A DNA stretch of 64,000 nt from Candidatus Poribacteria bacterium. GTDB lineage: Bacteria > Poribacteria > WGA-4E > WGA-3G. How positions within the stretch are numbered: position 1 is the first letter of the stretch; every line of letters begins with the position of its first letter. This document shows, piece after piece, positions 43,078 through 61,265 of this stretch. Both the position numbers and the translations under genes were made by a program. Below the pieces are notes generated by a model, which had not been told where the DNA came from, did not search any database, and was given only the letters and a program-made list of their open reading frames with translations. Location of the stretch: the NCBI GenBank assembly GCA_028820635.1, contig JAPPIG010000108.1:113733-177732 (forward strand), in the 5' to 3' direction.

Positions 43078-44562
43078 CTAACGTAGGAACACGAATGTAA
43101 CGACCACAAAAAGCGGGAATAAAATAGCAACGGACCATAACATGTATCCAAAGAAACTCGGCATGCGGATACCGCTCTGTTCGGCAATTGATTTAACCAT
43201 AAAATTCGGTGCATTTCCGATATATGTATTTGCACCCATGAAAACTGCCCCGACAGATATTGCAGTTAGCAATCTGACAAACTCAAGGTGATGGGGCTCA
43301 GTCAATTGTCCTGACAAAATTTGTGGAACAACCGCCTCAGTAAGCTCTAATTTTCCAAGTGCGGTGTTGAAAAATGTTAAATAGGTTGGCGCATTATCTA
43401 AGAAACTGGACAAGATCCCAGTTATCCAGAAGTAGTGAGAGGGTTGCTGAATTGCCCCGATTAACCCGCTCAGTGCGCCTTTTGTACCGACACCGAGAAT
43501 TGTCAATGCCGGAATAATCGTCATAAAGATGCCAGCAAATACTTTTGCGACTTCTTCGATTGGTTCCCATGAGAACTCGTTTGATTGGCGTAATTCACCG
43601 CTAAAGGGCGTAAACTTGAGGGATAATAAACCCATCACGACAATCAACACGTCGCGTGCGATATTCTGCCAATATACATGAACACCGAGTACGTTGATAT
43701 CTCCCCACTTGAAAGAGCCACTCATTAAGACTGCCGCAACGATACCAAAGAGGAAAACGAGATTAAAAAGACCTTCAACACGAATCGGTTCGTTGACTCC
43801 ATCATCTGGGACGACACCACCTTCTCGTTTGAACATGAATGTGTCTATTATGAAAAAGAGAACGATTAAAATGACACTAATAAATACCATGTGTGGAAAG
43901 AGTGCGGTTGTTGTCCAGAAGAAAGGCACGCCGTGTAGAAATCCAAGAAAAAGTGGTGGATCGCCAAGAGGGGTTAAGGAACCACCGATATTGCTTACTA
44001 AAAAGATGAAGAAGACAATTAAATGCACCTTACTCTTTCGGTACGCATTTGCTTTAATCAACGGACGGATAAGGAGCATTGATGCGCCTGTTGTTCCTAT
44101 CCATGAGGCAATTACAGTGCCGATTAGCAATAACAGCGTGTTAACCATCGGTGTGCCGCGCAATGTTCCTCTGACGAGTATCCCGCCTGCAACCGTGAAC
44201 AAACCCCATAACAGTATGATGAACGGAATGTAGTCTATTAAGTAGATGTATAAAATATCGTGAAAAGCGTCACCTCTGAAAACGACAAGATATGGGATTG
44301 CGAATAATAACGCCCATGCCAATGACATTTTTCCACCATGGTGGACAAGAAAATGGGAATCTAACAGGAGTGGGAAAAGTGCGATTGAGAGGAGAATTCC
44401 TACAAAGGGAATAATGCTCCAGATAGGTAGTATGGAACCATCTACGCGAAAGTGTCCACCCTCGCCATGTGTCTCATCAGCAGCGAAGGTTTCCATTGAA
44501 ACTACTAAAGTAAGCCCCACGATGATGCATAATATAAGAAAAGAGGCAAGTTTTGACTTCAC
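43078..44562 (-). CDS. Ion-transporter-superfamily permease (ArsB/NhaD/CitMHS-like), embedded between nuoM and nuoN
   Basis: 494 aa with about 12 TM segments. The SLTPLGDPPLFLGF block resembles the ArsB/NhaD family. Its stop codon abuts the nuoM start at 44562. Confidence 0.5.
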   Translation of the reverse strand: MKSKLASFLILCIIVGLTLVVSMETFAADETHGEGGHFRVDGSILPIWSIIPFVGILLSIALFPLLLDSHFLVHHGGKMSLAWALLFAIPYLVVFRGDAFHDILYIYLIDYIPFIILLWGLFTVAGGILVRGTLRGTPMVNTLLLLIGTVIASWIGTTGASMLLIRPLIKANAYRKSKVHLIVFFIFLVSNIGGSLTPLGDPPLFLGFLHGVPFFWTTTALFPHMVFISVILIVLFFIIDTFMFKREGGVVPDDGVNEPIRVEGLFNLVFLFGIVAAVLMSGSFKWGDINVLGVHVYWQNIARDVLIVVMGLLSLKFTPFSGELRQSNEFSWEPIEEVAKVFAGIFMTIIPALTILGVGTKGALSGLIGAIQQPSHYFWITGILSSFLDNAPTYLTFFNTALGKLELTEAVVPQILSGQLTEPHHLEFVRLLTAISVGAVFMGANTYIGNAPNFMVKSIAEQSGIRMPSFFGYMLWSVAILFPLFVVVTFVFLR

Positions 44563-46160
44563 TATTTCGTCTGTGCCTCCTCTTCAATCAGTTGTAGGGT
44601 TGCGGTTTCGACTTTCAGAATAACAGGGTCTTGAGTTTCACCATCAATAATTACTTGTCCAACCTCTGGCGTATTGTCAGATTCATTTACTTTTACTTTT
44701 TCAGTAACCACACCCACTGATGCTTTCATCGGTTTCAGGAATGTATTCGGATGTACACCAATCCATACAATGAAAAGCAGTATCGGCAGTAAGACAACTA
44801 TTTCACGCGGTTTCAGGTCAGGCAAAGATGCGTTTGTGTTGTCTGGTGTACCAAACATGACCCGCTGGAACATCCATAGCATATAAACTGCTGCCAAGAT
44901 TACGCCTGTTGTTGCGAAGACCACGTACCATTTGGAGAATGCCCCGCCAACAAAACTGCCAAGCAATATCATAAATTCACCTACGAATCCGTTGAGTCCC
45001 GGCAGTCCGATGGATGACAGTGTTACAATCAAAAAGATGGTAGCGAAGATAGGCATTTTCTTTGCCAGTCCACCGAAGTCAACGATCATTCGGCTGTGCC
45101 GCCGTTCATAAATCATGCCGACCAAAAGGAACAGTGCGCCAGTGCTTAATCCGTGATTGATCATTTGCAAAACGCTTCCCTGAATACCTAAATGACTTTT
45201 TGAAAAAAGACCTAATACTACGAAACCGAGGTGACTGACACTGGAATATGCGACAAGTTTTTTCAGGTCCGGTTGTACCATTGCTACTAATGCCCCGTAA
45301 ATTATACCGATAATTGCAAGTGGCACTATCCAAGGTGTAGCGTCAGCTGCAGCTTGTGGGAAAAGCGGTAGGCAGAAGCGGACTATCCCGTACGTCCCCA
45401 TTTTAAGCAGCACCCCTGCCAGGATCACACTTCCGACTGTAGGTGCTTCAACGTGTGCATCTGGTAGCCATGTATGGAATGGGAAAAGAGGCACTTTAAT
45501 CGCAAAAGCAATGAAAAATGCAAGGAATAATAGATAGGAATGATCAAATGTGCCTTCTGTTGCTAATAGTGTTACGAGATCAAAGCTGTTACCGTTTTGG
45601 AAGTATAGTGCTAAAATGCCGACTAACATGAGCGCACTGCCTGCCATTGTGTAAAGTACGAACTTGATAGTGGCATAGATTCTACGTTCACCACCCCATA
45701 TTCCGATAAGGAAATACATCGGGATTAACATTGCCTCCCAGAACACAAAGAACAAGAATAGGTCTAAGGCACAGAAAACACCCAGCATTCCAGTTTCCAG
45801 CGCGAGGAGCGACATCATAAAACCGCTCAATCCTTTCTCAACCGAATTCCAAGCGGCGAGAATACATATTGGCGTTAGGAAAGTTGTAAGTAGCACTAAC
45901 CACAACGAAATACCGTCAATGCCGATGTGGTAACTTATACCTAAACCGGCAATCCACGGCAGTTTCTGGTAGAGTTGTGAGTCAGTTTGGAAACCATCAA
46001 TTCCTGCCTCAAATCCGGTGTAAAGCCCTATTGAGACAACGAATGTCAACAAACTGATGACGAGCGCGATGCCTTTAATAGCAGATGCGCCCATATTTCT
46101 GAGCAATGCTATCGCTATCACACCAAGCAGTGGTAAAAAAATAACTATTGAAAGTAGCAA
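44562..46160 (-). CDS. nuoM: NADH-quinone oxidoreductase subunit M
   Basis: 532-aa NuoM/ND4 family antiporter-like subunit (…WLPDAHVEAPT…). Confidence 0.9.
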   Translation of the reverse strand: MLLSIVIFLPLLGVIAIALLRNMGASAIKGIALVISLLTFVVSIGLYTGFEAGIDGFQTDSQLYQKLPWIAGLGISYHIGIDGISLWLVLLTTFLTPICILAAWNSVEKGLSGFMMSLLALETGMLGVFCALDLFLFFVFWEAMLIPMYFLIGIWGGERRIYATIKFVLYTMAGSALMLVGILALYFQNGNSFDLVTLLATEGTFDHSYLLFLAFFIAFAIKVPLFPFHTWLPDAHVEAPTVGSVILAGVLLKMGTYGIVRFCLPLFPQAAADATPWIVPLAIIGIIYGALVAMVQPDLKKLVAYSSVSHLGFVVLGLFSKSHLGIQGSVLQMINHGLSTGALFLLVGMIYERRHSRMIVDFGGLAKKMPIFATIFLIVTLSSIGLPGLNGFVGEFMILLGSFVGGAFSKWYVVFATTGVILAAVYMLWMFQRVMFGTPDNTNASLPDLKPREIVVLLPILLFIVWIGVHPNTFLKPMKASVGVVTEKVKVNESDNTPEVGQVIIDGETQDPVILKVETATLQLIEEEAQTK

Positions 46161-46191
46161 AAAAATCTCCTTTAGAATAACTTAACTTTCA

Positions 46192-46617
46192 TCAACCGGA
46201 ACCAATAATCATCAATAATACCGAGTCCATCCCAGATGACTCGGATGATTCTCTGCGGCGTGCCAATTCGCGACGACGCCTTGAATAAGTGCCACGAGGC
46301 ATTTTGCTCTGCCACCAAAACTTTAGTTTACGATTGAATTTCGATATTTCCTCAGACGACCTACTGCAGTTGTCCAGAACCCATGCCCCTAAACTAATAT
46401 CGTTGTCAATCCGGACAGATGCCTCCTGAAATGAATCCGCTGAAATGCCAAGGAAGGATAATATTCCAGTATCTTGTTCAGAATCAGCACCGTATTTATA
46501 ACTTCCAATTTCTCCTGCATGGGCAGCTCGTGCCTTATCTGTCAGTCTTGCAACACCGCAGATGCCAGCAACTTCTTTGTTTAGCAAATCCCGTGGTCGA
46601 AAAGTATTCTGTTTCAT
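46192..46617 (-). CDS. Small soluble protein, paralog 1 of a tandem pair between nuoL and nuoM. Possibly DUF5069-like; unverified.
   Basis: 141 aa. About 75% identical to the 46754..47200 product; shared text includes FRPRDLLN-E(V/I)AGICGVARLTDKARA-H-GEIGSYKYGADSEQDT-ILSFLGISA. Confidence 0.55.
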   Translation of the reverse strand: MKQNTFRPRDLLNKEVAGICGVARLTDKARAAHAGEIGSYKYGADSEQDTGILSFLGISADSFQEASVRIDNDISLGAWVLDNCSRSSEEISKFNRKLKFWWQSKMPRGTYSRRRRELARRRESSESSGMDSVLLMIIGSG

Positions 46618-46753
46618 CTTTTCCTCTGTTCGTATTTTGTAAAAAGAAATTTTATGGAAACTATTCTACATCACGAAACAATCAATTAGCAAAAATCCCT
46701 TCTAATAGGGTATACTCACTTTGTAGTAACAAAACTGCAAATCTCTATCTTTT

Positions 46754-47200
46754 CTATCTTTTGAAGATTTTCGATAGTAACCACCACTGAGGTGAAACCC
46801 AAAAAGGAATAGATGGTTCTTCAGCATTTAATTCGCGGCGGCGTTTTGAAAATCCATTTTGAGGCATTTTACGCTGCCACTGATGTTTCAACTTCCGATT
46901 GAACTTAGATACTTCCTCAGATGATTTATCACAGTTGTTCAGAATCCATGCACCCAGTTTGAGATCGTTGTTGAGTCTGACTGCTGCATCTTTGAAAACT
47001 TCCGCTGAAATACCGAGGAACGATAGAATCTCTGTATCTTGTTCAGAATCAGCACCGTATTTATAACTTCCAATTTCTCCTACATGGTCAGCCCGCGCTT
47101 TATCTGTCAGTCTTGCAACACCGCAGATGCCAGCAATTTCTTGATTTAGCAAATCCCGTGGTCGAAAATTACTCTGTTTCATTTCTTCCTCCGTTAGCAT
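46754..47200 (-). CDS. Small soluble protein, paralog 2 of the tandem pair
   Basis: 148 aa. See paralog 1. Confidence 0.55.
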   Translation of the reverse strand: MLTEEEMKQSNFRPRDLLNQEIAGICGVARLTDKARADHVGEIGSYKYGADSEQDTEILSFLGISAEVFKDAAVRLNNDLKLGAWILNNCDKSSEEVSKFNRKLKHQWQRKMPQNGFSKRRRELNAEEPSIPFWVSPQWWLLSKIFKR

Positions 47201-47246
47201 TTCCTAAAAAAGATCGTGGGAACTGGTCTACATTATAAGACAATTT

Positions 47247-49154
47247 TTAAGCAAAAAACAGATAGTACGCGAGGAATAACACGATTCCTAGGACCATTGA
47301 CACAATATATACTTGGACAAGACCTGTTTGTAATCTTCGCAAAGTTCCGCCAATCACTCGGATAAGTGCAGCCACGCCATTAACAATTCCGTCAATAATC
47401 CCTGTATCAAACAATTTCCATAACAGAAAATGGGAAGCGTTTTTGATTGGCTGGACGATAAAAGTATTGTATAGCTCATCAATATAGAATTTGTTGGCAA
47501 CGAGTTTCTGTAATGCGTTGGTAGGTTCTGCAGAAGGCACACGATTCTTATAGCGTGTCCACGCAAATGTGATGCCTGCTATCCCAATGACTGATGAAAT
47601 TACCATGAACGGTATCGGACTACCCAATGCTTCGCCATGCCCGCCTTTAAAACCTGCTACTTTTTCAGTAAAGTGATGAAACCAACTATTGTGTCCGCCC
47701 ACCCCTAACAGCAATCCGATTAGGGCAGAGGGAATAGCAAGAATAGCCAACGGAATCCACATCACCGCAGGTGATTCATGCAGATGTGAAGCAACCTCAG
47801 GTTCAACGCGAGATTTCCCATAAAAAGTCACAAAGATTAGACGGAACATGTAGAACGCTGTCAGGAATGCAGTAATCAATCCAATGATGTAGATCGCTTT
47901 TCCGCTTCCCCATGTAACTCCCCACGCGCTATGTAAAATTTCATCCTTACTCCAGAAACCACTTAAGAACGGGGCACCTGCAATTGCCAACGCGCCAACC
48001 AAAAATGTAGCATGGGTTATCGGCAATTTGTTTCGCAATCCTCCCATTTTTCGTATATCTAATTCATTCGCCATTGCGTGCATCACGCTGCCAGCAGTCA
48101 AGAACATCAGCCCTTTAAAGAATGCATGTGTTACCAAATGGAAAATACCGGAAGCATACGCACCGACACCGACACCGACAAACATATACCCCAATTGGCT
48201 TACGGTGGAATAGGCGAGAATTCGTTTAATGTCATTCTGTTTGAGGGCTATTATTGCGGCGAACAAAGCGGTTAGGACACCGATCCAAGCGACAACTACT
48301 CCTGTTTCTGCGATGTTATACAGCACAGCGGAACGTGCAATCATATAGACACCCGCGGTAACCATTGTGGCGGCGTGTATTAATGCACTAACAGGGGTTG
48401 GACCTTCCATTGCATCTGGCAGCCAAACATAAAGAGGGAGCTGTGCGGATTTACCAACTGCTCCAACAAAGAGGAGCAAAGTCGCAAGCATAATTCCGTT
48501 TACACCAAAAACTATCTCATCACTTTTTGCTTCAGCTCCAGAAAATATCGTTGAGAAGTCAAGGGAGTTGAACACAGCAAACAACGTGAACATCCCTAAC
48601 AGAAAACCGAAATCACCGATTCTGTTGACAATAAACGCCTTTTTACCTGCATCCGTAGCGGATTGTTTCTCATACCAGAATCCTATTAGCAGATAGGAGC
48701 AGAGTCCAACACCTTCCCAACCAACAAACATCATCAGATAGTTGTTGCCGAGAACGAGGATAAGCATCGCGAAGACAAATAAATTTAGGTAGGCAAAATA
48801 GCGGGTATAGCCTGCATCTCCGTGCATATATCCGATGGAATATACGTGGATGAGAAATCCAACACCTGTAATTACCAACAACATCACAGTTGTCAAGGCA
48901 TCAACGTGGAAGCCGATGTTGAAAGTGAACGATTCACCTGCAATCCATGAATAAAGCACCTCATTGAACGGTTTCTCACTGCCCTGTACATTTACAAAAG
49001 CGATAATTGAACAGATTAAGGATACGAGTACGGCAAGTGCACCGATTGTCCCACTGAGTTTCTCGTTACCTTTTAACCATTTGCCAAACAATCCGTTAAT
49101 CAGAAACCCAACAAGTGGCGAAATTAATAAGATAATAATTAGACTATTTGACAT
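47247..49154 (-). CDS. nuoL: NADH-quinone oxidoreductase subunit L
   Basis: 635-aa NuoL/ND5 family protein (…WLPDAMEGPTPVSALIHAATMVTAG…). Confidence 0.9.
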   Translation of the reverse strand: MSNSLIIILLISPLVGFLINGLFGKWLKGNEKLSGTIGALAVLVSLICSIIAFVNVQGSEKPFNEVLYSWIAGESFTFNIGFHVDALTTVMLLVITGVGFLIHVYSIGYMHGDAGYTRYFAYLNLFVFAMLILVLGNNYLMMFVGWEGVGLCSYLLIGFWYEKQSATDAGKKAFIVNRIGDFGFLLGMFTLFAVFNSLDFSTIFSGAEAKSDEIVFGVNGIMLATLLLFVGAVGKSAQLPLYVWLPDAMEGPTPVSALIHAATMVTAGVYMIARSAVLYNIAETGVVVAWIGVLTALFAAIIALKQNDIKRILAYSTVSQLGYMFVGVGVGAYASGIFHLVTHAFFKGLMFLTAGSVMHAMANELDIRKMGGLRNKLPITHATFLVGALAIAGAPFLSGFWSKDEILHSAWGVTWGSGKAIYIIGLITAFLTAFYMFRLIFVTFYGKSRVEPEVASHLHESPAVMWIPLAILAIPSALIGLLLGVGGHNSWFHHFTEKVAGFKGGHGEALGSPIPFMVISSVIGIAGITFAWTRYKNRVPSAEPTNALQKLVANKFYIDELYNTFIVQPIKNASHFLLWKLFDTGIIDGIVNGVAALIRVIGGTLRRLQTGLVQVYIVSMVLGIVLFLAYYLFFA

Positions 49155-49157
49155 GTT

Positions 49158-49457
49158 TTATCCTTTCAGCGAATTAACTTCATCCACATTAATTGTTTCG
49201 CGATGCTTGAAAACACTTACAATAATTGCTAATCCGATTGCGACTTCCGCAGCAGCAACAGCCATCACAAAAAAGACGAACAACTGCCCCTCCACTTGAC
49301 CGAGGCTACGACTGATCGCTACAAAGGCGAGATTTGCTGCGTTTAGCATCAATTCAATACACATAAAGATGATAATCGCGTTTCTGCGGATGAGTACACC
49401 GATAACGCCTATTGTAAATAAGAGCGCGCTCAAGATGAGATAATACTCTAATGACAT
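49158..49457 (-). CDS. nuoK: NADH-quinone oxidoreductase subunit K
   Basis: 99-aa NuoK/ND4L family protein with 3 TM segments. Confidence 0.9.
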
Positions 49458-49458
49458 A

Positions 49459-49490
49459 TTAGTTGTCAGTTGTCAGTTGTCAGTTGTCAG
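49459..49490. repeat. Perfect tandem heptanucleotide repeat (AGTTGTC x4) immediately 5' of the nuoK start codon
   Basis: The sequence att-agttgtc-agttgtc-agttgtc-agttgtc-agagg abuts the nuoK ATG at 49457. Confidence 0.8.
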
Positions 49491-49618
49491 AGGATGGATT
49501 GTTAACCGTCCTCCTTCTGTCGTAACACACGAGTTCTGTAGGTGTTAGACAAGTTGAAAACTGATACCAATAACCGATGACTCCTTTGTTGTTGTAGGCA
49601 CTATCGCCTAAATCTGTT

Positions 49619-50167
49619 TTAGTTTTCAGTTTGGTTTTCGCGTTTTACCAAGACAATTACGCCAATCAATGCTGCCAACAAAATAAGCGAGGTAACCTCA
49701 AACGGTAAAAGGTATTTGCTGAACAAAAGTTCACCAATATCATAAGTTTCAATCGGATTATTAGTGAGAGCAGCTGCCTTTTCCTGTGCTGCTTCCGATC
49801 CAACCTCAGTATTATTGAGGGCATTCACCGCAATATAGATGCCTTGAGCAGCCAAGAGGATACCCAAAATTATCGCAACACCTTTCAGTTTCCCTGTGAG
49901 AGCACCTTTCGCAGAGAGTGTGCCAAGGTTCAGCAGCATAATTACAAAGAGGAACAATACCATGATTGCTCCAGCATACACAATAACCTGAACAGCAGCG
50001 ACGAAGTGTGCGCCCAAAATCACAAACAACCCTGCTTGTGCGAAAAACGTTACAATAAGCGAAAGCGCACTATATATCGGGTGCCGAAACGAGATAACAG
50101 CGATTGCACCAATTAGTGACACAGCACCAAAGATAAAAAATAGAATCATTTCTGGATTCATTTGCAC
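49619..50167 (-). CDS. nuoJ: NADH-quinone oxidoreductase subunit J
   Basis: 182-aa NuoJ/ND6 family protein. Confidence 0.85.
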   Translation of the reverse strand: MQMNPEMILFFIFGAVSLIGAIAVISFRHPIYSALSLIVTFFAQAGLFVILGAHFVAAVQVIVYAGAIMVLFLFVIMLLNLGTLSAKGALTGKLKGVAIILGILLAAQGIYIAVNALNNTEVGSEAAQEKAAALTNNPIETYDIGELLFSKYLLPFEVTSLILLAALIGVIVLVKRENQTEN

Positions 50168-50172
50168 GCCTC

Positions 50173-51411
50173 CTATTCTACTGCGTCCAAGCCGCGCAGT
50201 GGTGCTGCGGCGGGAGTGTTTTGCGCTGCAGATTTACTGTTATTGTCCATAGCAAGCATCCCTGCTACGATTGCTACGACAATAAACGCTGCAACTACAT
50301 TGCCAACACCTATCCAAAGACGATTACCTTTCGTTATTATATATAATGTGCCGGTAACAACGATTGACGATAAGGCAACAGGCAACAAGAATTTCCAACC
50401 GAAATTCATGAGTTGGTCATAGCGGAAACGCGGAAGTGTCCAGCGTACCCAGATGAAAACAAACAAGAAAATTCCTGTTTTAACAAAGAAGATAGCAAAC
50501 GAGATAAGTCCAGCAAGTACGGATCCCTCTCCACCTATGTTTTCCAATCCGAAAAAGTGCCAACCGCCTAAGAACAGTGTTACAACCACTGCCGAACCGA
50601 CAATCATGCTCATATATTCTGCCATAAAGAATATAGCGAATTTCATACTGCTGTATTCGGTGTGGTAACCTGCGACAAGTTCCTGCTCTGCTTCAGCAAG
50701 GTCAAATGGCAATCGGTTTGTTTCTGCGAACACTGCTGTTGTAAACGCAAGAAATGCTGGAAAGTGTATCAGGAAATTCCATTCCCACGGGTTTGCACCC
50801 TGTCCCTCTGCAATTTCCCGAAGTTTGAGCGATTCGGAGAGCATCAAAACACCGATAATTGCCAATCCGAGCGTCAATTCGTAACTTATCATCTGCGCGG
50901 ATGAACGCAAACCACCCAAAAGTGAGTATTTGTTGTTTGATGCCCACGCACCTATAACAACACCATACACACCGAGAGACGTTATTGCTAAGATATATAA
51001 AATGCCTATATTGAGGTCAGCGATCTGAAGCGGAATTTCATATCCTGCTATCGTCATAGAACTTCCGAATGGTACGACAGCTACTATAATCATTGCTGGG
51101 ACCAGAAGCATTGCTGGGGCAAGCACGTAAAGTGGCTTATCTACGTGATTTGGGATGAGGTCTTCCTTAAAGAGGAACTTAATCCCATCTGCAATAGGTT
51201 GAAGTAGTCCTTGTGGTCCGACGCGATTCGGTCCGAGTCGATCCTGCATCCATCCGCTCACACGGCGTTCAGACCAAATCATCGCCATCACACCAATAAT
51301 CAGCAGATGTGCAACGATGAGAATTTTGACGATTGAACTGATGATAAAAACGTGAAGAGGTAAACTTTCCATATTTCTCCTTCTTGATGACGCGCAGATT
51401 GAAATTAGCAA
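50173..51411 (-). CDS. nuoH: NADH-quinone oxidoreductase subunit H (with N- and C-terminal extensions)
   Basis: NuoH/ND1 blocks (MQDRLGPNRVGP, LAEAEQELVAGYHTEYS) are present. At 412 aa it is about 70 aa longer than typical. The true start may be the internal MESLP. Confidence 0.85.
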   Translation of the reverse strand: MLISICASSRRRNMESLPLHVFIISSIVKILIVAHLLIIGVMAMIWSERRVSGWMQDRLGPNRVGPQGLLQPIADGIKFLFKEDLIPNHVDKPLYVLAPAMLLVPAMIIVAVVPFGSSMTIAGYEIPLQIADLNIGILYILAITSLGVYGVVIGAWASNNKYSLLGGLRSSAQMISYELTLGLAIIGVLMLSESLKLREIAEGQGANPWEWNFLIHFPAFLAFTTAVFAETNRLPFDLAEAEQELVAGYHTEYSSMKFAIFFMAEYMSMIVGSAVVVTLFLGGWHFFGLENIGGEGSVLAGLISFAIFFVKTGIFLFVFIWVRWTLPRFRYDQLMNFGWKFLLPVALSSIVVTGTLYIITKGNRLWIGVGNVVAAFIVVAIVAGMLAMDNNSKSAAQNTPAAAPLRGLDAVE

Positions 51412-51412
51412 G

Positions 51413-53068
51413 TTAGTCTAACTTAATGCCTGCATCTCCTATGTTTTGATGTGTTGCGTCACCGTAACCCGCTACATTCTCTGCAATTGCTATGGCAATT
51501 TCACCCGCGAAATGGTAATCAATTTCTCCACCGAGTCGCTTCGCAAGCTGCTGCGTAATCTGCCAATCTACTTGTGCTTCACCTGGAGGGTCAATTGTCT
51601 TTCGAATCCGTTGCACCCATCCGGTAGAATTGGTAAACGTGCCATCTTTTTCTGCGAAAGTTGTTCCCGGTAGTACCACATCGGCTAATTCCGTAACCGC
51701 TGATGGTAAAACATCTTGCACGATGAGAAAATCAACCTTTTCTAATGCGTTTCTTTCGGTATCTTCAAGCGCGCGTTCTGGCACACCACTAACGATATAA
51801 ACGACTTTCGCACTTGCGACCTTTTCCCAAAGTGCATCGCCTTCTAAAACGACATTTCCGTTTGCAGAGCCGAGTATTGTTCGCGCACCTGCGGTGTTTG
51901 GATTCTTGTCCGCTTCTATGGTAAATTGTGGGAATTTGTGCTCTTCACCGGGTAGTTGCCCAAAGAGCCCCAATTGTGTTGTCTTTAGCACATCGTGTGC
52001 AAACTGCTGTAAAACATAGTTGTCTTCATTCGTGCCTTGTGCAGAACCGATAACAACAATATCTGCAGCATCAACTTCGGATAAATTTTCGGTAATTAAC
52101 GTCAACGCATCTGCCCACTGCGTTGTTACAAGTTCGCCATCAACCTTCTTAAGGGGTAGTTGGAGACGGTCATCGCTGTTGACATAGTGGTAACCGAGTC
52201 TGCCATCATCACACATCCAGTGTTGGTTAATATCTTCATGGAAGCGAGGTTTGATACGGTACACACCGTCTGCCTTATACTCAACCGTGACATTACATCC
52301 GACGCTACATCCTGAACAGATACTATTCGCCTTTTCCATAAACCACGGACGAGATTTGAACAAAAAATCTTTGCTAATCAACGCACCGACAGGACAAATA
52401 TCAACGACATTTCCAGCGAGTTTATTATCAAGAAGTTGTATGGGAGTTCCTTCATGGCTTCGGGGAATGTCAATCTCATCGTGGGAACCGCGATTTATCA
52501 ACCCAAGTTCACCACTGCCTGAAACCTCATCACAGAATCGGATACACCGCGTGCAAACGATACAACGTGTGGAATAGAGCAAAATATCCGGCCCCAGGTC
52601 TTTTTTCGGAGGCACGTTTTTGACTTCTATATAGCGGCTTTTATCGTGCCCATGCCGGTAGCTGAAGTCTTGCAGGTCGCATTCACCTGCTTGGTCACAG
52701 ACGGGGCAATCAAGAGGATGATGTACGAGCAAGAATTCCAAAATATCTTCTCTTGCCTTTATGACACGGGAACTGTCTGTTCGGACGATAGCGTCATATT
52801 TTTCTTCTAACTTTCTTTCTGGTGGTGCGGATCGGACTGTCAGTGTACAACCCGTAGCTAATTGTCGGGCTGGACCGATTGTACCTGGGGGAGCACCTGG
52901 TATGGGACCGTAAGGTTCAACGAGGCACATCCGGCAATTCGCTGGACGACTCAACCCTGCGTGGTAGCAGTAGTGAGGCACCTCAATGCCGTGTTCCCGT
53001 GCAGCCTCAACTATATTTGTTCCGTCTTCAACCTCTATTTCAAGGTCATTCAGTTTAATAAACGCCAT
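51413..53068 (-). CDS. nuoG: NADH-quinone oxidoreductase subunit G (short 551-aa form)
   Basis: Has the N-terminal 2Fe-2S and 4Fe-4S cysteine clusters (CYHAGLSRPANCRMCLVE, …CPVCDQAGEC…, CIVCTRCIRFC). It lacks the long C-terminal domain of the 900-aa forms. Confidence 0.85.
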   Translation of the reverse strand: MAFIKLNDLEIEVEDGTNIVEAAREHGIEVPHYCYHAGLSRPANCRMCLVEPYGPIPGAPPGTIGPARQLATGCTLTVRSAPPERKLEEKYDAIVRTDSSRVIKAREDILEFLLVHHPLDCPVCDQAGECDLQDFSYRHGHDKSRYIEVKNVPPKKDLGPDILLYSTRCIVCTRCIRFCDEVSGSGELGLINRGSHDEIDIPRSHEGTPIQLLDNKLAGNVVDICPVGALISKDFLFKSRPWFMEKANSICSGCSVGCNVTVEYKADGVYRIKPRFHEDINQHWMCDDGRLGYHYVNSDDRLQLPLKKVDGELVTTQWADALTLITENLSEVDAADIVVIGSAQGTNEDNYVLQQFAHDVLKTTQLGLFGQLPGEEHKFPQFTIEADKNPNTAGARTILGSANGNVVLEGDALWEKVASAKVVYIVSGVPERALEDTERNALEKVDFLIVQDVLPSAVTELADVVLPGTTFAEKDGTFTNSTGWVQRIRKTIDPPGEAQVDWQITQQLAKRLGGEIDYHFAGEIAIAIAENVAGYGDATHQNIGDAGIKLD

Positions 53069-53135
53069 AAATATTACTCCAATGACTTGGCATAGCCCTC
53101 AATATTCTGTCAGTTTCCAACTGGGATAATCAGTT

Positions 53136-54611
53136 CTACAGGTCAGCAAACTCCTTTGGAATAAACCGCTGTTGATACGCGTAATTTTCCTCTGGCGGCA
53201 CTGTCGCTTCAGCAACAGGTAGCGTAACCAATTTACCTTCTCGTATTGCGGCTTCAAATTCAGGTCTGAACTTGCGCATATAACTGACTGCCGGCCACGA
53301 AACAGCAATACCAAAGACGCAGATAGTATTCCATGTCATTGTATCCACATTCGCAATGTTGTTCGCAACGTTTTCCAGCAGATCAAGGTCTTCGTAGATT
53401 TCCTCTGTTTCACCAGTATCACCCCATCTGCCGCTTTCGGTGACACCGAACTTGGGTCGTGTGATAGTGGTTTGTCTGCCTTCTCCATCGGCAATCCGTT
53501 GGACAATATCACGGACCCACGGTGTGCCCCATCGACACGGTGTGCACTGCCCACACGATTCATGCGCGTAGAATTTCATGATATTGAGTAAGCAGTCAAC
53601 GATATTCCGGGTCTCATTCATTACAATGATGCCACCCGAACCTAACATTGATTTTGCAAGTGTGAGCGATGTAAAATCAAGTCGTGTATCTAACTCGTAA
53701 TGCGTCAAAATCGGTGCGGAACTTCCACCAGGGATCACCGCTTTGACCTCTTCACCACGCAAACCGCCTGCTACCTCAATAAGCTCTGTGCTTGTCAAAC
53801 CGAGTTCCAATTCATATACACCCGGTTCGTTGACATCGCCGCTGATACAGTAGAGTTTTGTGCCTGTATTTGGATCCGCTTTTGGTGGGTCAAATCGCGT
53901 ATCACCGTACGTCGGTCCCATCTGTGTGTACCATTCTACACCATTCCCTACGATAAAGGGTAGGTTGCACAAGGTCTCCACATTCTGCACGACGGTGGGT
54001 TTCATAAACACACCTTGAACAGCAGGGAAAGGCGGTTTGTTGCGAGGTTGCCCTCGTTTCCCCTCAAGGGATTCAATCAATCCTGTCTCTTCACCACAAA
54101 TATATGCACCAGCACCCGGATGTGAATAGATGTTAATATTTAGCCCCGTGTCTCGAACATTTTCACCAAGGTAACCCTGTTCGTAAGCCTCCTTAATGGC
54201 GGTATCTAACATCTTTTTTCCAAGTGTGAATTCACCGCGAATGTAAACATAAGTGGTCTCAATTCCCATTGCGTAGCAACAGATTAAGATACCTTCTATC
54301 AACAGATGTGGGTTTTTCTCTAAGACGTAGCGGTTGCTGAAGGTGCCGGGCTCGCTTTCGTCAGCGTTGCAACAAAGATAGCGCGGCTCAATATCCCTTG
54401 GGACAAAACTCCATTTTTCCCCAGTAGAAAAGCCGGCACCGCCTCTGCCTTTCAACCCCGCATCCCACACCATTTGCGCGATTTCTTCAGGTTGATATTC
54501 GGCAATCGCCTTTTCAAAACGGGTGTAACCCTCATATTGTCTAAAGACATCAAAGGTGTTTATATTCGGTACATCCAGATGCTCGTAGAGAATCCGTCTT
54601 TCTTGAACCAT
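53136..54611 (-). CDS. nuoF: NADH-quinone oxidoreductase subunit F
   Basis: 51-kDa subunit blocks (GRGGAGFSTGEKW, CGQCTPCR). Length is 491 aa. Confidence 0.9.
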   Translation of the reverse strand: MVQERRILYEHLDVPNINTFDVFRQYEGYTRFEKAIAEYQPEEIAQMVWDAGLKGRGGAGFSTGEKWSFVPRDIEPRYLCCNADESEPGTFSNRYVLEKNPHLLIEGILICCYAMGIETTYVYIRGEFTLGKKMLDTAIKEAYEQGYLGENVRDTGLNINIYSHPGAGAYICGEETGLIESLEGKRGQPRNKPPFPAVQGVFMKPTVVQNVETLCNLPFIVGNGVEWYTQMGPTYGDTRFDPPKADPNTGTKLYCISGDVNEPGVYELELGLTSTELIEVAGGLRGEEVKAVIPGGSSAPILTHYELDTRLDFTSLTLAKSMLGSGGIIVMNETRNIVDCLLNIMKFYAHESCGQCTPCRWGTPWVRDIVQRIADGEGRQTTITRPKFGVTESGRWGDTGETEEIYEDLDLLENVANNIANVDTMTWNTICVFGIAVSWPAVSYMRKFRPEFEAAIREGKLVTLPVAEATVPPEENYAYQQRFIPKEFADL

Positions 54612-54699
54612 ATTTTTCCTCTACATATTGTCTCTTATAATTTTGTAGGTTGGGTAGAACACAGTGAAACCCAACAAGTTCCGATTTATGACATTTCCT

Positions 54700-55224
54700 C
54701 TAATTGGGAAGTTGCTCTAATATTTCATCAACCTTTTCGGGTGTCAAATTTTTATATAAATCGTCATTCACCATGATAACGGGGGCGACATCACACGATG
54801 CAAGGCACTCAACTTTCATCAAGGTGAACTTGCCATCATCAGTAGTGCCTTTTGCGAGATTTGTTTCTGATGCCACGTCAGTACTCAGTTTTTCTTTCAG
54901 ATGATCCAAAACTACTTTACAGTCGCGCAATGCACACGGCAGCGTATGACAGACGCGAATAACATATTTCCCCACCGGTTCCTCAAAGAACATCGGATAG
55001 AAGGTTACCACGTCTTTTACCTTCATCACAGAAAGTTCCAACAGTTCCGCTACATACTTCATGACTGCAGGCGTAATATAACCTTCCTGCCGTTGTGCCA
55101 GGTGGAGCGTTGGCAGCATCGCTGCTTCTTTGACGGGATACCGACCAATCAGTTCGTCAAATTCTCGTTTGTTTTCTTCGTTAAACTGAAATGGTGTTTC
55201 GATTTGTATTATTTCATCTGACAT
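54700..55224 (-). CDS. nuoE: NADH-quinone oxidoreductase subunit E
   Basis: 24-kDa subunit thioredoxin-like 2Fe-2S protein (…VCHTLPCALRDC…ECLASCDVAPV…). Confidence 0.9.
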   Translation of the reverse strand: MSDEIIQIETPFQFNEENKREFDELIGRYPVKEAAMLPTLHLAQRQEGYITPAVMKYVAELLELSVMKVKDVVTFYPMFFEEPVGKYVIRVCHTLPCALRDCKVVLDHLKEKLSTDVASETNLAKGTTDDGKFTLMKVECLASCDVAPVIMVNDDLYKNLTPEKVDEILEQLPN

Positions 55225-55376: not shown

Positions 55377-56177
55377 TTAACTGCGTGCTTTCAAACGTGC
55401 AATTTCTTCACGAAGTTGTGCGACTTCTGCTTCAGCGTTTTCTGCGCGTGTGGCTTCTTGCTCTGCGCGTGTTTCTGCATTTTCTCGTGCGATGGTTTCC
55501 TGTTCAGCGTGTGCCTCTGCAATTTCTGTGCGTTCTGCACGTGTCTGAAGCCATTCACCCGCAACAGGATCATAAATCGCTATCTCTCCATCGCGAATAT
55601 GGAAATCCAAATCCAAAACTGAGGCACGAAAACCTCCCCGTTCATCCGCAGAAATAGCGACATACTCACCATCCACTAACGTAAATCCCATCATCGGAGA
55701 TGGTAAATACAACCCCTCTGCATCATATAAGAAGTAATTCTGTATTCCCAATGAAGCATAAACATCCTTCTTCTCACCTAAGTCTTTATCGTAAGTGCTT
55801 TTACTGGAGAACTCCATCACGAAATCGGGTGCTTTTCCTTCCTCCCATGTTTTATACGTCAGACGCAGCTTTGGGTTTATACCAAAACAGACGAGCACAT
55901 CCGGAGATATAGACTTCCGGGGATCCCCTTCGCTGTAATACATCATTAGGTCGCCAGAGATATAGACTTCCGGATTTTGTGCGAAATGTGTCTCAAGTGC
56001 TTGCAGCGTCCATATTAGTAATCTTAAATGATAATCGCTTGCTGCCATCGGCTTTCCATCTTCAGAAGGGTAAAGGTCAACATCGTCAGTAGGGACATAA
56101 GGAATAAAGGTATCTTTTGAATACGGGCGTGCCATTATGTTTCTCCTTTGTTGTCCGATGCGTAAAAACGAAGACAA
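55377..56177 (-). CDS. Uma2-family (DUF820) restriction-endonuclease-fold protein, copy A. The true start is probably the internal MARPY Met at about 56135.
   Basis: Uma2 core (…DVLVCFGI…PDFVMEFSS…) with an A/E/R-rich coiled C-terminal tail. It is about 97% identical at the DNA level over roughly 600 bp to copy B. Confidence 0.7.
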   Translation of the reverse strand: MSSFLRIGQQRRNIMARPYSKDTFIPYVPTDDVDLYPSEDGKPMAASDYHLRLLIWTLQALETHFAQNPEVYISGDLMMYYSEGDPRKSISPDVLVCFGINPKLRLTYKTWEEGKAPDFVMEFSSKSTYDKDLGEKKDVYASLGIQNYFLYDAEGLYLPSPMMGFTLVDGEYVAISADERGGFRASVLDLDFHIRDGEIAIYDPVAGEWLQTRAERTEIAEAHAEQETIARENAETRAEQEATRAENAEAEVAQLREEIARLKARS

Positions 56178-56199
56178 TTAGTTTCATGTAATTTTAGTA

Positions 56200-56859
56200 T
56201 CACTTTTTCTTGAGAACCATTTTCTGATCAGAATAAGTCAGCGTTAACGTATCTCCTGTGACGTTCCATGTATATTCAATTCCGCTGTCGAATATAAAAT
56301 CTGAAGGATTCTGTTCAAATCCACTTTTCGATTCCGCTGCCAAATCCGCTTCTAACTGTTCTACGGTTTTACCTACTATTTGTGCTGCCCATACCTCTTT
56401 TGGTTCAAGCGTTACTTCAACATCCATTTTGATATCTTCTGTAGTGATTTTTAAGGTTTCCTCATCTGCAATATACATTCCTGCTATAGTTTGAGTGAGT
56501 TTCTGGGTCATTGACGAAGCAGGTGGTCCCGGGTATTTCTCTGATACCTCGAACGCTAAATTACCTGTCAAAGAACCATCATCTTCAAAAACCCAATTAT
56601 TTGAAATAAGTGTGGATTCTTGTTCAGCTTCTATATCGTCCGATTGTTCAGGTGCGACATTTTGGGAGAAAAATGTTTCAAACATTTCACCATTAATTGA
56701 GACAATTTCCCAAGAACTTCCAACAAAGTCGAAGTCCACAATAACATCTTCTTTTTTCTTTTCTTCATCTTCACTGCAACCGACCGCGAAAATGGAGAAC
56801 AAACTTATCAAGACTATAGCCGAGGTTGTAAAAAGTAGTTTCATGCTAATTTCAGCCAT
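56200..56859 (-). CDS. Lipoprotein of unknown function (219 aa), flanked by the two Uma2 genes
   Basis: Signal peptide plus lipobox (FAVGCSE), followed by an acidic, serine-rich mature region. Confidence 0.55.
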   Translation of the reverse strand: MAEISMKLLFTTSAIVLISLFSIFAVGCSEDEEKKKEDVIVDFDFVGSSWEIVSINGEMFETFFSQNVAPEQSDDIEAEQESTLISNNWVFEDDGSLTGNLAFEVSEKYPGPPASSMTQKLTQTIAGMYIADEETLKITTEDIKMDVEVTLEPKEVWAAQIVGKTVEQLEADLAAESKSGFEQNPSDFIFDSGIEYTWNVTGDTLTLTYSDQKMVLKKK

Positions 56860-56973
56860 GAGTTAGTATTTTCCCAAACTGAATCCTGTTTTTCTCAGGG
56901 TCTCTCATGTCAAAACACGCGAGACCATCTTCATTCTTCAAAGAATTATACCGCCAAGATGCATAATTGTCTG

Positions 56974-57864
56974 TTACTCCGTACGCAGGCGTTTAATTTC
57001 TGCTAAAGCCTTAGCGAGTTCTGCCTCAGCGTTTTGCCGTGCGTTAGTTTCTTGTTCGGCGTGTGCTTCAGCGTTTTCTGCGCGTGCTTCAGCGTTTTCT
57101 GCGCGTGCTTCAGCAATTTCTGTACGTTCTGCACGCGTCTGAAGCCATTCACCCACAATAGGATCATAAATCGCTATCTCTCCATCACGAATATGGAAAT
57201 CCAAATCCAAAACCGAAGCGCGAAAACCTCCTCGTTCATCCGCAGAAATAGCGACATACTCACCATCCACTAACGTGAACCCCATCATCGGAGATGGTAA
57301 ATACAAACCCTCTGCATCATATAAGAAGTAATTCTGTATTCTCAATGAAGCATAAACATCCTTCTTCTCGCCTAAGTCTTTATCATAAGTGCTTTTACTG
57401 GAGAACTCCATCACGAAATCGGGTGCTTTTCCTTCCTCCCATGTTTTATACGTCAGACGCAGCTTTGGGTTTATACCAAAACAGACGAGCACATCCGGAG
57501 ATATAGACTTCCGGGGATCCCCTTCGCTGTAATACATCATTAGGTCGCCAGAGATATAGACTTCCGGATTTTGTGCGAAATGTGTCTCAAGTGCTTGCAG
57601 CGTCCATATTAGTAATCTTAAATGATAATCGCTTGCTGCCATCGGCTTTCCATCTTCAGAAGGGTAAAGGTCTATATCGTCAGTAGGGGCATAAGGAATA
57701 GAGGTATCTTTTGCATAAGGGCGTGCCATTATGTTTCTCCTTAAAAAGTTTATACTACTTTCGTTCCTATTTCCCAACTTCATCCATAAGTTAGTATTTT
57801 CCCACAAACTGAATTCGGTTTTTCTCAGGGTCTCTGATATCAAAAATCCCATAACCACCATCAT
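56974..57864 (-). CDS. Uma2-family (DUF820) protein, copy B. The annotated long ORF probably starts at the internal MARPY Met, about 57730.
   Basis: Near-identical to copy A across the core. Its C-terminal tail is built from 21-bp DNA repeats (gcgtgcttcagcgttttctgc x about 3) that encode AENAEARAENAEARAENAEA. Confidence 0.7.
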   Translation of the reverse strand: MMVVMGFLISETLRKTEFSLWENTNLWMKLGNRNESSINFLRRNIMARPYAKDTSIPYAPTDDIDLYPSEDGKPMAASDYHLRLLIWTLQALETHFAQNPEVYISGDLMMYYSEGDPRKSISPDVLVCFGINPKLRLTYKTWEEGKAPDFVMEFSSKSTYDKDLGEKKDVYASLRIQNYFLYDAEGLYLPSPMMGFTLVDGEYVAISADERGGFRASVLDLDFHIRDGEIAIYDPIVGEWLQTRAERTEIAEARAENAEARAENAEAHAEQETNARQNAEAELAKALAEIKRLRTE

Positions 57865-59843: not shown

Positions 59844-60422
59844 CTACACGTTCTGCTTTTCAAAATTGAAACTTTCGCGCTCACCACGCCCACGTAGCGG
59901 ATAATCCTTGCGAAGTGGATGTCCCTCAAAATCATCCGGCATTAAAATTCGACGCAGATCAGGGTGTCCTTCAAAGTCTATTCCGAACATATCGTGGGTT
60001 TCCCGCTCCAACCAGTTGGCACCCTTCCATAACTTCGTCACCGAGGGAACCTTCAAATCTTTTTCATGCACTGGCACTTTAACCCGAATACGAGGCGTTT
60101 CCCCTTCAAAGGTGTAAAGGTGATAGACAACCATGAATCGGGCATAGTCATACTGCATCAATTCCGATTCCAAATTGGAATTGTCAACTGCTGTTACGTC
60201 AATAAGAAACGTATATGCAAGTTCTGTCTTTAGATACTCTAACAGCGCGTAAATGTGTTCTTTGCCTACAACAACAGCAACACCGTTACTGGTTTCTGTA
60301 TCTGCTAAGAGGACATCTGCAAACTTTTCTTGTAGTTTTTCAAGTACAAGCGGTTGCGTTTCTTCCGTAATCTCTTTTTCTTCATTCATTATATGCGACC
60401 TCAGAACCTTTGGGGAGCTCAC
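59844..60422 (-). CDS. nuoC: NADH-quinone oxidoreductase subunit C
   Basis: 30-kDa subunit, 192 aa. It is not fused to nuoD. The true start is probably the internal MNEEK Met. Confidence 0.85.
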
Positions 60423-60930
60423 CTTTTTGGATTTGCCGTTGTACTTGCATCACAGCATCAATCAAATCTTCTGGTCGTGGTGGGCATCCGGGAATATAGA
60501 CATCAACAGGAAGGAATTGGTCAACGCCTTGTATTAAGGTATAAGTATCAAAGACACCGCCGCAGGATGCACATGCACCCATTGAGATAACCCACTTCGG
60601 TTCTGGCATCTGGTCATAAATACGTTTTAGTACCGGCATCATTTTAATTGAAATCCGTCCTGAAACGATGAGTAGGTCAGATTGGCGTGGAGAGAAACGA
60701 ATTGCCTCAGAACCGAATCGAGAGAGGTCGAATTTGGAAGCCAAGGTCGCCATCATCTCAATCGCACAGCAGGCGGTACCGAACGGCATCGGCCACAAGG
60801 AATTCTTTCGTCCCCAATTGACAACTTTGTCAATAGTTGTTGTGATGATATTACCATCAGTTTGTTCGGTGCTTGATCCACTTTGTATATGGGTTTTGGC
60901 TAATCCCATGTTAAGCCTCCTTTTTTCCAA
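60382..60930 (-). CDS. nuoB: NADH-quinone oxidoreductase subunit B
   Basis: 20-kDa subunit with conserved 4Fe-4S cluster-ligand blocks ([28 protein letters not shown]). Confidence 0.9.
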
Positions 60931-61265
60931 GCGTAGATGTAGCCGAGAAGGAGAATACCGATAAACACCAGCATCTCAACTAAAATAAATAAACCGTTAT
61001 CTGCAGACATTTTCTTAAAGACCACTGCCCACGGATAGAGAAAGACGACTTCAATATCAAAGATGATAAAGAGCATAGCGATGAGGTCGAACCGGATGGA
61101 GAACCTTTGTCTGGCATCACCGACCGGTTGCACACCAGATTCGTAGACAGATAGTTTAACACGTGTGGGTTTTTTAGGTCCAAGAAGATGGGTCAGGGCG
61201 AGATTAACACCTGCAAAGAGGACTGCAAAGAGTCCTAAAAATACTATTGGAAGATAATCTAACAT
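60900..61265 (-). CDS. nuoA: NADH-quinone oxidoreductase subunit A
   Basis: NuoA/ND3 family protein with 3 TM segments, 121 aa. It is the first gene of the cluster. Confidence 0.85.

What the first reader, a model, noticed from the sequence alone, without database searches (positions are those of the whole stretch)
49619..51411. nuoI is missing from an otherwise complete nuoA-N cluster
nuoH (50173..51411) and nuoJ (49619..50167) are separated by only 5 bp. No ORF in the window encodes the two-[4Fe-4S] ferredoxin-like subunit NuoI, which would carry two CxxCxxCxxxCP motifs. All other 13 subunits are present. NuoI is indispensable for electron transfer (clusters N6a and N6b), so it must be encoded elsewhere. 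The alternative is that the complex uses a different partner. Combined with the three foreign insertions, the operon has been heavily remodelled.
Basis: seen in the sequence. Interest (0 to 1): 0.5.

Follow-up and report, generated by a model that had tools for sequence, protein, structure and literature searches.

The report
Poribacterial complex I operon lacks nuoI
The respiratory complex I gene cluster of this sponge-associated Poribacteria genome has no gene for the iron-sulfur subunit NuoI, an old arrangement shared by the whole phylum and seen in other bacteria, and the subunit is most likely encoded elsewhere in the genome.

Summary
The minus-strand cluster nuoABCD-EFGH-JKLMN (41539-61265) contains 13 of 14 subunits. 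nuoH and nuoJ are 11 nt apart (5 nt by longest ORF). Neither a six-frame motif scan nor a NuoI HMM finds a 2x[4Fe-4S] ORF in the window or in about 17 kb of adjoining contig.

It is not a mis-assembly or a recent remodelling. Four independent assemblies and 48 of 48 Poribacteria species genomes, including complete long-read chromosomes, share the same H-J junction, with the TAG stop overlapping the nuoJ ribosome-binding site. Most of the supposed foreign insertions are also conserved across the phylum.

The closest non-poribacterial operons keep nuoI between H and J. nuoI-less operons also occur in Acidobacteria, and stand-alone nuoI genes are common in metagenomes.

Published COG tables show that Poribacteria carry two nuo gene sets and 1-2 NuoI-family (COG1143) genes. 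NuoI is therefore most probably supplied from another locus. I could not retrieve that gene, so this step is inferred.

Verdict: an ordinary gene-order variant and a new member of a known kind. Interest is low.

The parts
50173..51372 (-). nuoH (399 aa; the longest ORF extends to the TTG at 51411)
   Evidence: PF00146, E=1e-123. The ATG start matches the public gene calls.
50162..50172 (-). 11-nt nuoH-nuoJ spacer. The TAG stop (50173-50175) overlaps the GGAGG ribosome-binding site of nuoJ. This is the position where nuoI sits in canonical operons.
   Evidence: Sequence read. The same junction occurs in 52 Poribacteria loci, with a median gap of 11 nt (range -4 to 26).
49619..50161 (-). nuoJ (180 aa)
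   Evidence: PF00499, E=3e-39. An exact protein match is found in four independent assemblies.
50173..50331 (-). Coding region for the Poribacteria-specific C-terminal extension of NuoH (about residues 348-399, with one extra hydrophobic helix)
   Evidence: All outgroup NuoH proteins end at about residue 341-349 in window numbering. Hydropathy of residues 353-375 is 2.3, and there is no similarity to NuoI.
60900..61265 (-). nuoA
   Evidence: PF00507
60382..60909 (-). nuoB. The cluster N2 cysteines are present (CCxxE, GACxxCGG, GCPP).
   Evidence: PF01058; sequence
59844..60389 (-). nuoC
   Evidence: PF00329
58216..59412 (-). nuoD
   Evidence: PF00346
57791..58147 (-). Glyoxalase/VOC-family gene between nuoD and nuoE, conserved in the operon across the phylum
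   Evidence: PF00903; present in 40 of 40 Poribacteria loci
55377..57729 (-). Variable block: Uma2, a 219-aa hypothetical protein, Uma2
   Evidence: PF05685 twice; present in only 9 of 40 loci
54700..55224 (-). nuoE
   Evidence: PF01257
53136..54611 (-). nuoF (FMN and N3 cluster; N3 cysteines 353, 356, 359, 431)
   Evidence: PF01512 and PF10589; cysteines
51413..53068 (-). nuoG (551 aa; cysteines for N1b, N5, N4 and N7 present)
   Evidence: PF10588, PF22117 and PF00384; cysteines
49158..49457 (-). nuoK
   Evidence: PF00420
47247..49154 (-). nuoL
   Evidence: PF00361 and PF00662
46192..47200 (-). Two tandem DUF5069 genes between nuoL and nuoM
   Evidence: PF16798 twice; at least one copy in 29 of 42 loci
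44562..46160 (-). nuoM
   Evidence: PF00361
43078..44562 (-). CitMHS_2 transporter-like gene between nuoM and nuoN. Its start overlaps the nuoM stop.
   Evidence: PF16980, E=1e-175; present in 39 of 39 Poribacteria loci and in the sister operon L137
41539..43008 (-). nuoN
   Evidence: PF00361

Best explanation
This is the 14-subunit-type NADH:quinone oxidoreductase (complex I) operon of a Candidatus Poribacteria genome. nuoI was removed from its canonical slot between nuoH and nuoJ in the ancestor of the phylum. The junction was then resealed into a tight, probably translationally coupled nuoH-nuoJ pair.

The enzyme still needs the NuoI ferredoxin subunit. Its clusters N6a and N6b bridge N5/N4 in NuoG to N2 in NuoB, and all of those ligands are intact here. 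NuoI is most likely made from a gene elsewhere in the chromosome and assembles in trans. That gene could be a stand-alone nuoI or the nuoI of the second, EFG-less nuo gene set that Poribacteria carry.

Shown: nuoI is absent here and across the phylum. The rest of the electron path is intact. Close relatives have nuoI in place. nuoI-less operons and orphan nuoI genes exist in other lineages. Poribacteria genomes contain COG1143-family genes.

Inferred: one of those COG1143 genes is the NuoI used by this complex.
For: Thirteen subunits are identified and no NuoI is found in the window or its flanks.

The source is a Poribacteria contig. The same junction occurs in two ENA assemblies and two Logan assemblies.

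All 48 Poribacteria species-representative loci, many from complete 4-6.7 Mb chromosomes, have H followed directly by J and no NuoI within +/-10 kb. The junction sequence TAGGAGG-N7-ATG is conserved.

Subunit identities across the phylum are 79-98%, so the operon is under strong constraint.

The Fe-S ligands of NuoB (N2), NuoF (N3) and NuoG (N1b, N4, N5, N7) are intact, and no Cys-rich substitute ORF is present.

The closest non-poribacterial operons are L137, L162, L170 and L172 (NuoB 70-72%, NuoD 58-62%, NuoH 59-62%). They keep nuoI between H and J, and L137 shares the CitMHS_2 gene.

There is precedent for the arrangement. All 27 acidobacterial loci (26 Pyrinomonadaceae/Chloracidobacterium-type and one Terriglobia) lack nuoI at H-J. 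Hausmann 2018 Table S2b lists nuoI on other scaffolds than the nuoACDHJKLMN operons (PMC6018796). Orphan nuoI loci occur in Ca. Eisenbacteria-type contigs. At least 14 of 80 JGI NuoI loci have no nuo neighbour.

The COG table of Slaby 2017 (PMC5649159) covers Poribacteria bin70, bin44 and SAG WGA-3G. It gives NuoA/B/D/H/J/L/M = 2 (bin44: NuoA and NuoB = 1), NuoE and NuoG = 1, and COG1143 (NuoI family) = 2/2/1.
Against: I did not retrieve a poribacterial NuoI sequence or locus. Three large protein searches each showed only the best 120 hits, and none was poribacterial. These searches never sampled the sister-type NuoI family, so they are uninformative.

The KO table of Robbins 2021 gives K00338 (nuoI) = 0 for the 91%-complete Poribacteria MAG APA_bin_38, while nuoH and nuoJ = 2. 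That negative is unreliable. Chloroflexi bin87 (APA_bin_43) also scores K00338 = 0 yet has COG1143 = 2.

COG1143 also includes PsaC/HycF-like ferredoxins. The COG counts are therefore consistent with a NuoI gene but do not prove one.
Confidence: 0.8

Rival explanations
1. Assembly or binning artefact: nuoI was deleted from the contig by mis-assembly.
For: None found.
Against: The junction is identical in four independent assemblies from different samples and runs. It is also present in 48 of 48 species genomes, including complete long-read chromosomes.
Confidence: 0.01
2. Poribacteria have no canonical NuoI at all. This complex either uses a divergent or unrelated Fe-S connector encoded elsewhere, or shares one NuoI with the second nuo complex in an unusual way. 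The phylum-specific C-terminal helix of NuoH may help to dock it.
For: K00338 = 0 in a 91%-complete Poribacteria MAG that has two copies of most nuo genes. No poribacterial NuoI was seen in any search. The NuoH extension is unique to the phylum.
Against: The K00338 call is demonstrably unreliable, as shown by bin87. COG1143 genes are present in three Poribacteria genomes. Established structural knowledge of complex I (T. thermophilus and E. coli structures) is that every homologue with an N-module uses the NuoI/TYKY subunit to bridge NuoG and NuoB. My searches could not have seen a sister-type NuoI.
Confidence: 0.08
3. The operon is decaying or non-functional, and nuoI loss is the first step of pseudogenisation.
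For: An essential subunit gene is missing, and unrelated genes lie inside the cluster.
Against: All 13 genes are intact, with their cofactor ligands. They are 79-98% identical across 48 species with the same order. The inserted genes are themselves conserved.
Confidence: 0.02
4. A protein encoded inside the operon (glyoxalase, DUF5069, the 219-aa hypothetical protein or CitMHS_2) replaces NuoI.
For: These genes are conserved within the operon.
Against: They contain 1-2 cysteines each and no Fe-S motif. The sister operon L137 has both CitMHS_2 and nuoI.
Confidence: 0.01

Closest known systems
Canonical 14-gene nuoA-N / nqo1-14 operon (E. coli, Thermus thermophilus). The closest sequence relatives found here are the metagenomic operons L137, L162, L170 and L172.
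   Same: The subunit set A-H and J-N, the gene order and the cofactor motifs are the same. L137 even shares the CitMHS_2 gene between nuoM and nuoN.
   Different: nuoI lies between nuoH and nuoJ in those operons. Here H and J are 11 nt apart. NuoH carries an extra C-terminal helix, and VOC and DUF5069 genes sit inside the cluster.
Acidobacterial nuo operons without nuoI: nuoACDHJKLMN(+EFG) in peatland Acidobacteria (Hausmann et al. 2018, PMC6018796), and Pyrinomonadaceae/Chloracidobacterium loci L057-L083
   Same: nuoH is followed directly by nuoJ in a whole lineage. In the Hausmann table nuoI is listed on other scaffolds.
   Different: The lineage is separate in NuoH, NuoD and NuoL neighbour-joining trees, so the loss from the operon was probably independent. 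Terriglobia also lack nuoB in the operon, whereas Poribacteria keep it.
Stand-alone (orphan) nuoI genes, for example the dcd-nuoI-hsp20-dnaK locus of Ca. Eisenbacteria-type contigs (P0236, P0212) and at least 14 JGI soil loci
   Same: They show that a typical NuoI can be encoded away from any nuo gene and be conserved there.
   Different: These are high-GC soil organisms. The corresponding poribacterial locus was not found.
Cyanobacterial/plastid NDH-1, whose ndh genes are scattered over several loci (established knowledge)
   Same: It is a complex I homologue assembled from subunits encoded at different loci.
   Different: In that system ndhI stays with ndhA/G/E and the N-module is absent. 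Here only nuoI is displaced and NuoEFG are present.

Membership tests
Respiratory complex I, 14-subunit bacterial type (NuoA-N) | Genes for the membrane-arm and Q-module subunits A, B, C, D, H, J, K, L, M, N | tested here: met
   Pfam hits above the gathering score for all ten
Respiratory complex I, 14-subunit bacterial type (NuoA-N) | N-module NuoE, NuoF and NuoG with FMN and Fe-S motifs | tested here: met
   PF01257, PF01512/PF10589 and PF10588/PF22117; cysteine ligands present
Respiratory complex I, 14-subunit bacterial type (NuoA-N) | Cluster N2 ligands in NuoB | tested here: met
   [13 protein letters not shown] and GCPP are present
Respiratory complex I, 14-subunit bacterial type (NuoA-N) | NuoI (2x[4Fe-4S]) encoded in the cluster between nuoH and nuoJ | tested here: not met
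   No motif or HMM hit in the window, its flanks or 48 related loci
Respiratory complex I, 14-subunit bacterial type (NuoA-N) | NuoI encoded somewhere in the genome | tested here: inconclusive
   COG1143 = 2/2/1 in three Poribacteria genomes, but K00338 = 0 in one MAG.
nuoI-less nuo operon with nuoI in trans (as in Acidobacteria) | nuoH directly followed by nuoJ, conserved in the lineage | tested here: met
   48 of 48 Poribacteria species, with a conserved junction
nuoI-less nuo operon with nuoI in trans (as in Acidobacteria) | An orphan or second-cluster nuoI identified in the same genome | not testable with these tools
   Only +/-10 kb around fetched genes is readable. About 80 kb of the 194-kb contig was examined without a hit.
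NuoI / TYKY ferredoxin family | Two CxxCxxCxxxCP motifs in an ORF of 130-200 aa | tested here: not met
   No ORF in any of the six frames of the window has them

The most novel reading that the evidence does not exclude
Poribacteria may run a full NuoEFG-containing complex I without a dedicated canonical NuoI. The N6a/N6b bridge would then come from a divergent ferredoxin-like protein, or from a single NuoI shared between their two nuo complexes. The phylum-specific extra helix of NuoH and the conserved in-operon VOC, DUF5069 and CitMHS_2 proteins would be lineage-specific accessory subunits.
Probability: 0.08. Interest if true: 0.7.

Novelty: new member of a known kind. Interest (0 to 1): 0.22.

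Why it matters
As it stands, this finding matters mainly for annotation. Pipelines that require all 14 nuo genes to be co-located, or that rely on K00338, will score Poribacteria as lacking complex I or as having an incomplete module. The same applies to some Acidobacteria and Chloroflexi. The enzyme is almost certainly complete.

The finding also shows that nuoI is the subunit gene most often displaced from nuo operons. It was lost from the operon apparently independently in Poribacteria, in two acidobacterial groups and in Eisenbacteria-type lineages.

If Poribacteria truly lacked a canonical NuoI, that would challenge the universal N5-N6a-N6b-N2 electron path. The evidence makes this unlikely.

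Tried and rejected
1. Hidden or frameshifted nuoI in the window. A six-frame Cys-motif scan and a NuoI HMM on all ORFs of at least 30 aa found nothing.

2. Walking along the source contig. The 8-9 kb beyond each window end contain no NuoI. One boundary protein was not on record.

3. Retrieving the poribacterial NuoI from the 5.8-billion-protein collection. I used a profile of nine NuoI proteins, the Scalindua NuoI and an orphan NuoI as queries. Only the best 120 hits are shown. They were Ignavibacteria-like, Scalindua/Planctomycetota, Gemmatimonadota and Eisenbacteria-type. I used chromosome lengths as fingerprints for Poribacteria genomes, and none matched. Context look-ups of six candidates gave anammox-type operons, orphan loci from high-GC organisms and one ordinary operon.

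4. JGI metagenome scan with a NuoI alignment. No Poribacteria-like locus emerged by GC or tetranucleotide signature. The scan was still useful for finding orphan genes and sister operons.

6. AlphaFold model of NuoI for an AFDB search with organism names. The second was good (86.5), but the afdb50 library was unavailable.

7. Literature. No paper links Poribacteria with nuoI. Spero 2015 and Degli Esposti 2015 do not discuss nuoI-less operons. The Podell 2019, Siegl 2011 and Kamke 2013 papers are not held.

8. NuoH C-terminal extension as a remnant of nuoI. There is no similarity (best E = 0.26).

9. Operon-internal substitutes. These were rejected on cysteine content.

Full report
**Observation.** The window is 42% GC. 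Its minus strand carries a complex I cluster from 61265 down to 41539.

Pfam identifies NuoA, B, C, D, E, F, G, H, J, K, L, M and N, all well above the gathering scores. Three blocks of other genes interrupt the cluster:
- between nuoD and nuoE: glyoxalase/VOC, Uma2, a 219-aa hypothetical protein and a second Uma2;
- between nuoL and nuoM: two DUF5069 genes;
- between nuoM and nuoN: a CitMHS_2 transporter-like gene.

nuoH is at 50173-51372 with its ATG start. The spacer is therefore 11 nt, or 5 nt by the longest-ORF convention, and the stop codon overlaps a GGAGG ribosome-binding site.

A six-frame scan of the whole window for CxxCxxCxxxC finds only the N4 motif of NuoG. An HMM built from nine NuoI proteins of outgroup operons finds nothing in any ORF of at least 30 aa at E<=10.

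**Origin and artefact check.** The exact NuoJ protein is encoded on a 194-kb ENA scaffold, on a 13-kb scaffold from a second sample, and on two Logan assemblies from different runs. All four have the same H-J junction.

Reading 8-9 kb beyond each window end on the 194-kb scaffold shows no NuoI.

A scan of one genome per species with NuoH returned 48 Candidatus Poribacteria loci at 79-95% identity, many from complete 4-6.7 Mb chromosomes. None has a NuoI-like ORF within +/-10 kb. All have nuoH followed by nuoJ. The junction motif TAGGAGG-N7-ATG is conserved, with a median gap of 11 nt and a range of -4 to 26 across 52 loci. Mis-assembly is excluded, and the arrangement dates back to the ancestor of the phylum.

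**The supposed insertions.** Across the species representatives:
- the VOC gene lies between nuoD and nuoE in 40 of 40 loci;
- CitMHS_2 lies between nuoM and nuoN in 39 of 39;
- DUF5069 lies between nuoL and nuoM in 29 of 42;
- the Uma2 block is present in only 9 of 40.

The operon is therefore not recently remodelled. Apart from Uma2, these genes are stable members of the cluster.

NuoH also carries a C-terminal extension of about 50 residues with one additional strongly hydrophobic helix. It is absent from every outgroup NuoH and unrelated to NuoI.

**Does the enzyme still need NuoI?** The N2 cysteines of NuoB are present. So are the N3 cysteines of NuoF and the N1b, N5, N4 and N7 ligands of NuoG. 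No ORF in the cluster is Cys-rich enough to bind two [4Fe-4S] clusters.

From the solved structures of complex I (established knowledge), electrons pass from N5 in NuoG via N6a and N6b in NuoI to N2 in NuoB. An operon that keeps both ends of this chain under strong constraint, at 79-98% identity across 48 species, implies that a NuoI is supplied.

**Relatives and precedent.** All 27 acidobacterial loci returned by the same scan also lack nuoI between H and J. Of these, 26 are Pyrinomonadaceae/Chloracidobacterium-type and one is Terriglobia. Planctomycetota, Gemmatimonadota, Ignavibacteria, Bdellovibrionales and Anaerolineales keep it.

Rough neighbour-joining trees of NuoH, NuoD and NuoL place the nuoI-less groups as separate clades among nuoI-containing ones. 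This suggests independent displacements.

Hausmann et al. 2018 describe nuoACDHJKLMN operons in peatland Acidobacteria, and their Table S2b lists nuoB and nuoI on other scaffolds.

Context look-ups of NuoI hits revealed two kinds of displaced nuoI. One is a stand-alone nuoI in a conserved dcd-nuoI-hsp20-dnaK neighbourhood, in a family that includes a Ca. Eisenbacteria protein. The other is a scrambled nuoI-zip-nuoB-nuoD-nuoF-nuoG cluster.

A JGI metagenome scan with a NuoI alignment returned 80 loci. Forty have nuo neighbours, at least 14 are clear orphans with 1.5-8 kb of non-nuo sequence on both sides, and 26 are too short to judge.

The same scan found the closest non-poribacterial operons: L137, L162, L170 and L172 (GC 0.37-0.49; NuoB 70-72%, NuoD 58-62%, NuoH 59-62%). 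All of them have nuoI between H and J, and L137 also has CitMHS_2 between M and N. The displacement therefore maps to the Poribacteria stem, after the CitMHS_2 gene was acquired.

**Is nuoI elsewhere in Poribacteria?** I could not retrieve the gene. The three protein-collection searches list only the best 120 hits each and never sampled the sister-type NuoI family.

Two published tables give indirect evidence, and they point in opposite directions.

The COG table of Slaby et al. 2017 covers Poribacteria bin70, bin44 and the single-cell genome WGA-3G. It gives two copies of NuoA, B, D, H, J, L and M (bin44 has one copy of NuoA and NuoB), one copy of NuoE and NuoG, and COG1143 (NuoI/HycF family) = 2, 2 and 1. 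Poribacteria therefore have a second, EFG-less nuo gene set and NuoI-family genes outside this operon.

The KO table of Robbins et al. 2021 gives K00338 = 0 for Poribacteria MAG APA_bin_38, which is 91% complete, with nuoH and nuoJ = 2. However, Chloroflexi bin87 (APA_bin_43) is also K00338 = 0 while having COG1143 = 2. The KO negative is therefore unreliable. COG1143 is in turn broader than NuoI. On balance this favours a nuoI encoded elsewhere but does not prove it.

**Conclusion.** The best-supported explanation (confidence about 0.8) is an ordinary functional complex I whose nuoI gene was displaced from the operon in the poribacterial ancestor. NuoI would be provided in trans, either from a stand-alone gene or from the second nuo cluster.

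The rivals fare as follows. The artefact, decay and in-operon substitute explanations are contradicted by the data. A genuinely NuoI-less or non-canonically bridged enzyme remains possible at below 10%.

The arrangement is a new, apparently undiscussed member of a known kind of operon variant. Its main practical consequence is for automated module-completeness calls.

Noticed in passing
window 50173-50331 (- strand): NuoH has a Poribacteria-specific C-terminal extension of about 50 residues. It contains one extra hydrophobic helix (residues 353-375) and a conserved ...LDA(V/I)E end. It is absent from all outgroup NuoH proteins and shows no similarity to NuoI.
   Followed up: partly
window 43078-44562 (- strand); also L137: A CitMHS_2 (ion-transporter superfamily) gene sits between nuoM and nuoN, with its start overlapping the nuoM stop. 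It is conserved in 39 of 39 Poribacteria operons and in the nuoI-containing sister operon L137. It may be a lineage-specific membrane accessory subunit.
   Followed up: partly
window 46192-47200 (- strand): Two tandem DUF5069 genes lie between nuoL and nuoM. At least one copy is present in 29 of 42 Poribacteria operons. No paper in the library mentions DUF5069.
   Followed up: partly
window 57791-58147 (- strand): A glyoxalase/VOC-family gene lies between nuoD and nuoE and is conserved in 40 of 40 Poribacteria operons.
   Followed up: partly
window 55377-57729 (- strand): Two Uma2-family (putative endonuclease) genes flank a 219-aa protein with a signal-peptide/lipoprotein-like N-terminus. This is the only truly variable block of the operon (9 of 40 species).
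   Followed up: partly
window 53136-54611 (NuoF residues about 360-430): NuoF has an insertion of about 30 residues between the third and fourth cysteine of the N3 cluster motif. Pfam splits PF10589 into two stretches.
   Followed up: no
window 59413-59843 and 49458-49618: There are unusually long intergenic gaps inside the operon: 430 bp between nuoC and nuoD, with two tiny called ORFs, and 160 bp between nuoJ and nuoK. The nuoC-nuoD gap is only about 55 bp in the close relative L047.
   Followed up: no
published tables (PMC5649159 file 10; PMC8163846 File S1): Poribacteria genomes carry two sets of most nuo genes but only one NuoE and one NuoG, which indicates a second, EFG-less complex I-like cluster. 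K00338 calls are false-negative for at least one Chloroflexi MAG.
   Followed up: partly
L089, L090, L096: Anammox/Scalindua-related NUO operons carry a GAF/PAS-domain gene between nuoF and nuoG, and their NuoF has an extra Fer4 domain.
   Followed up: no
L093, L095; L094: A conserved orphan nuoI neighbourhood (MoCF_biosynth-dcd-nuoI-hsp20-dnaK) occurs in Ca. Eisenbacteria-type contigs. One 2.1-Mb contig has a scrambled nuoI-zip-nuoB-nuoD-nuoF-nuoG cluster.
   Followed up: partly
window 37006-41358 (- strand): An ECF sigma-70, a zf-HC2 anti-sigma factor, a DUF4252 protein and an 835-aa DUF4252/CBM9/Omp85-like protein lie directly downstream of nuoN. The sigma/anti-sigma pair is also present in the related strain L002.
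   Followed up: no
window 1288-2048, 18552-22194, 8349-11849: Other features in the window are IS630-type transposase fragments, a type I restriction-modification HsdS plus HsdM (with an HSDR_N domain), and a 1166-aa ORF with no Pfam family on record.
   Followed up: no
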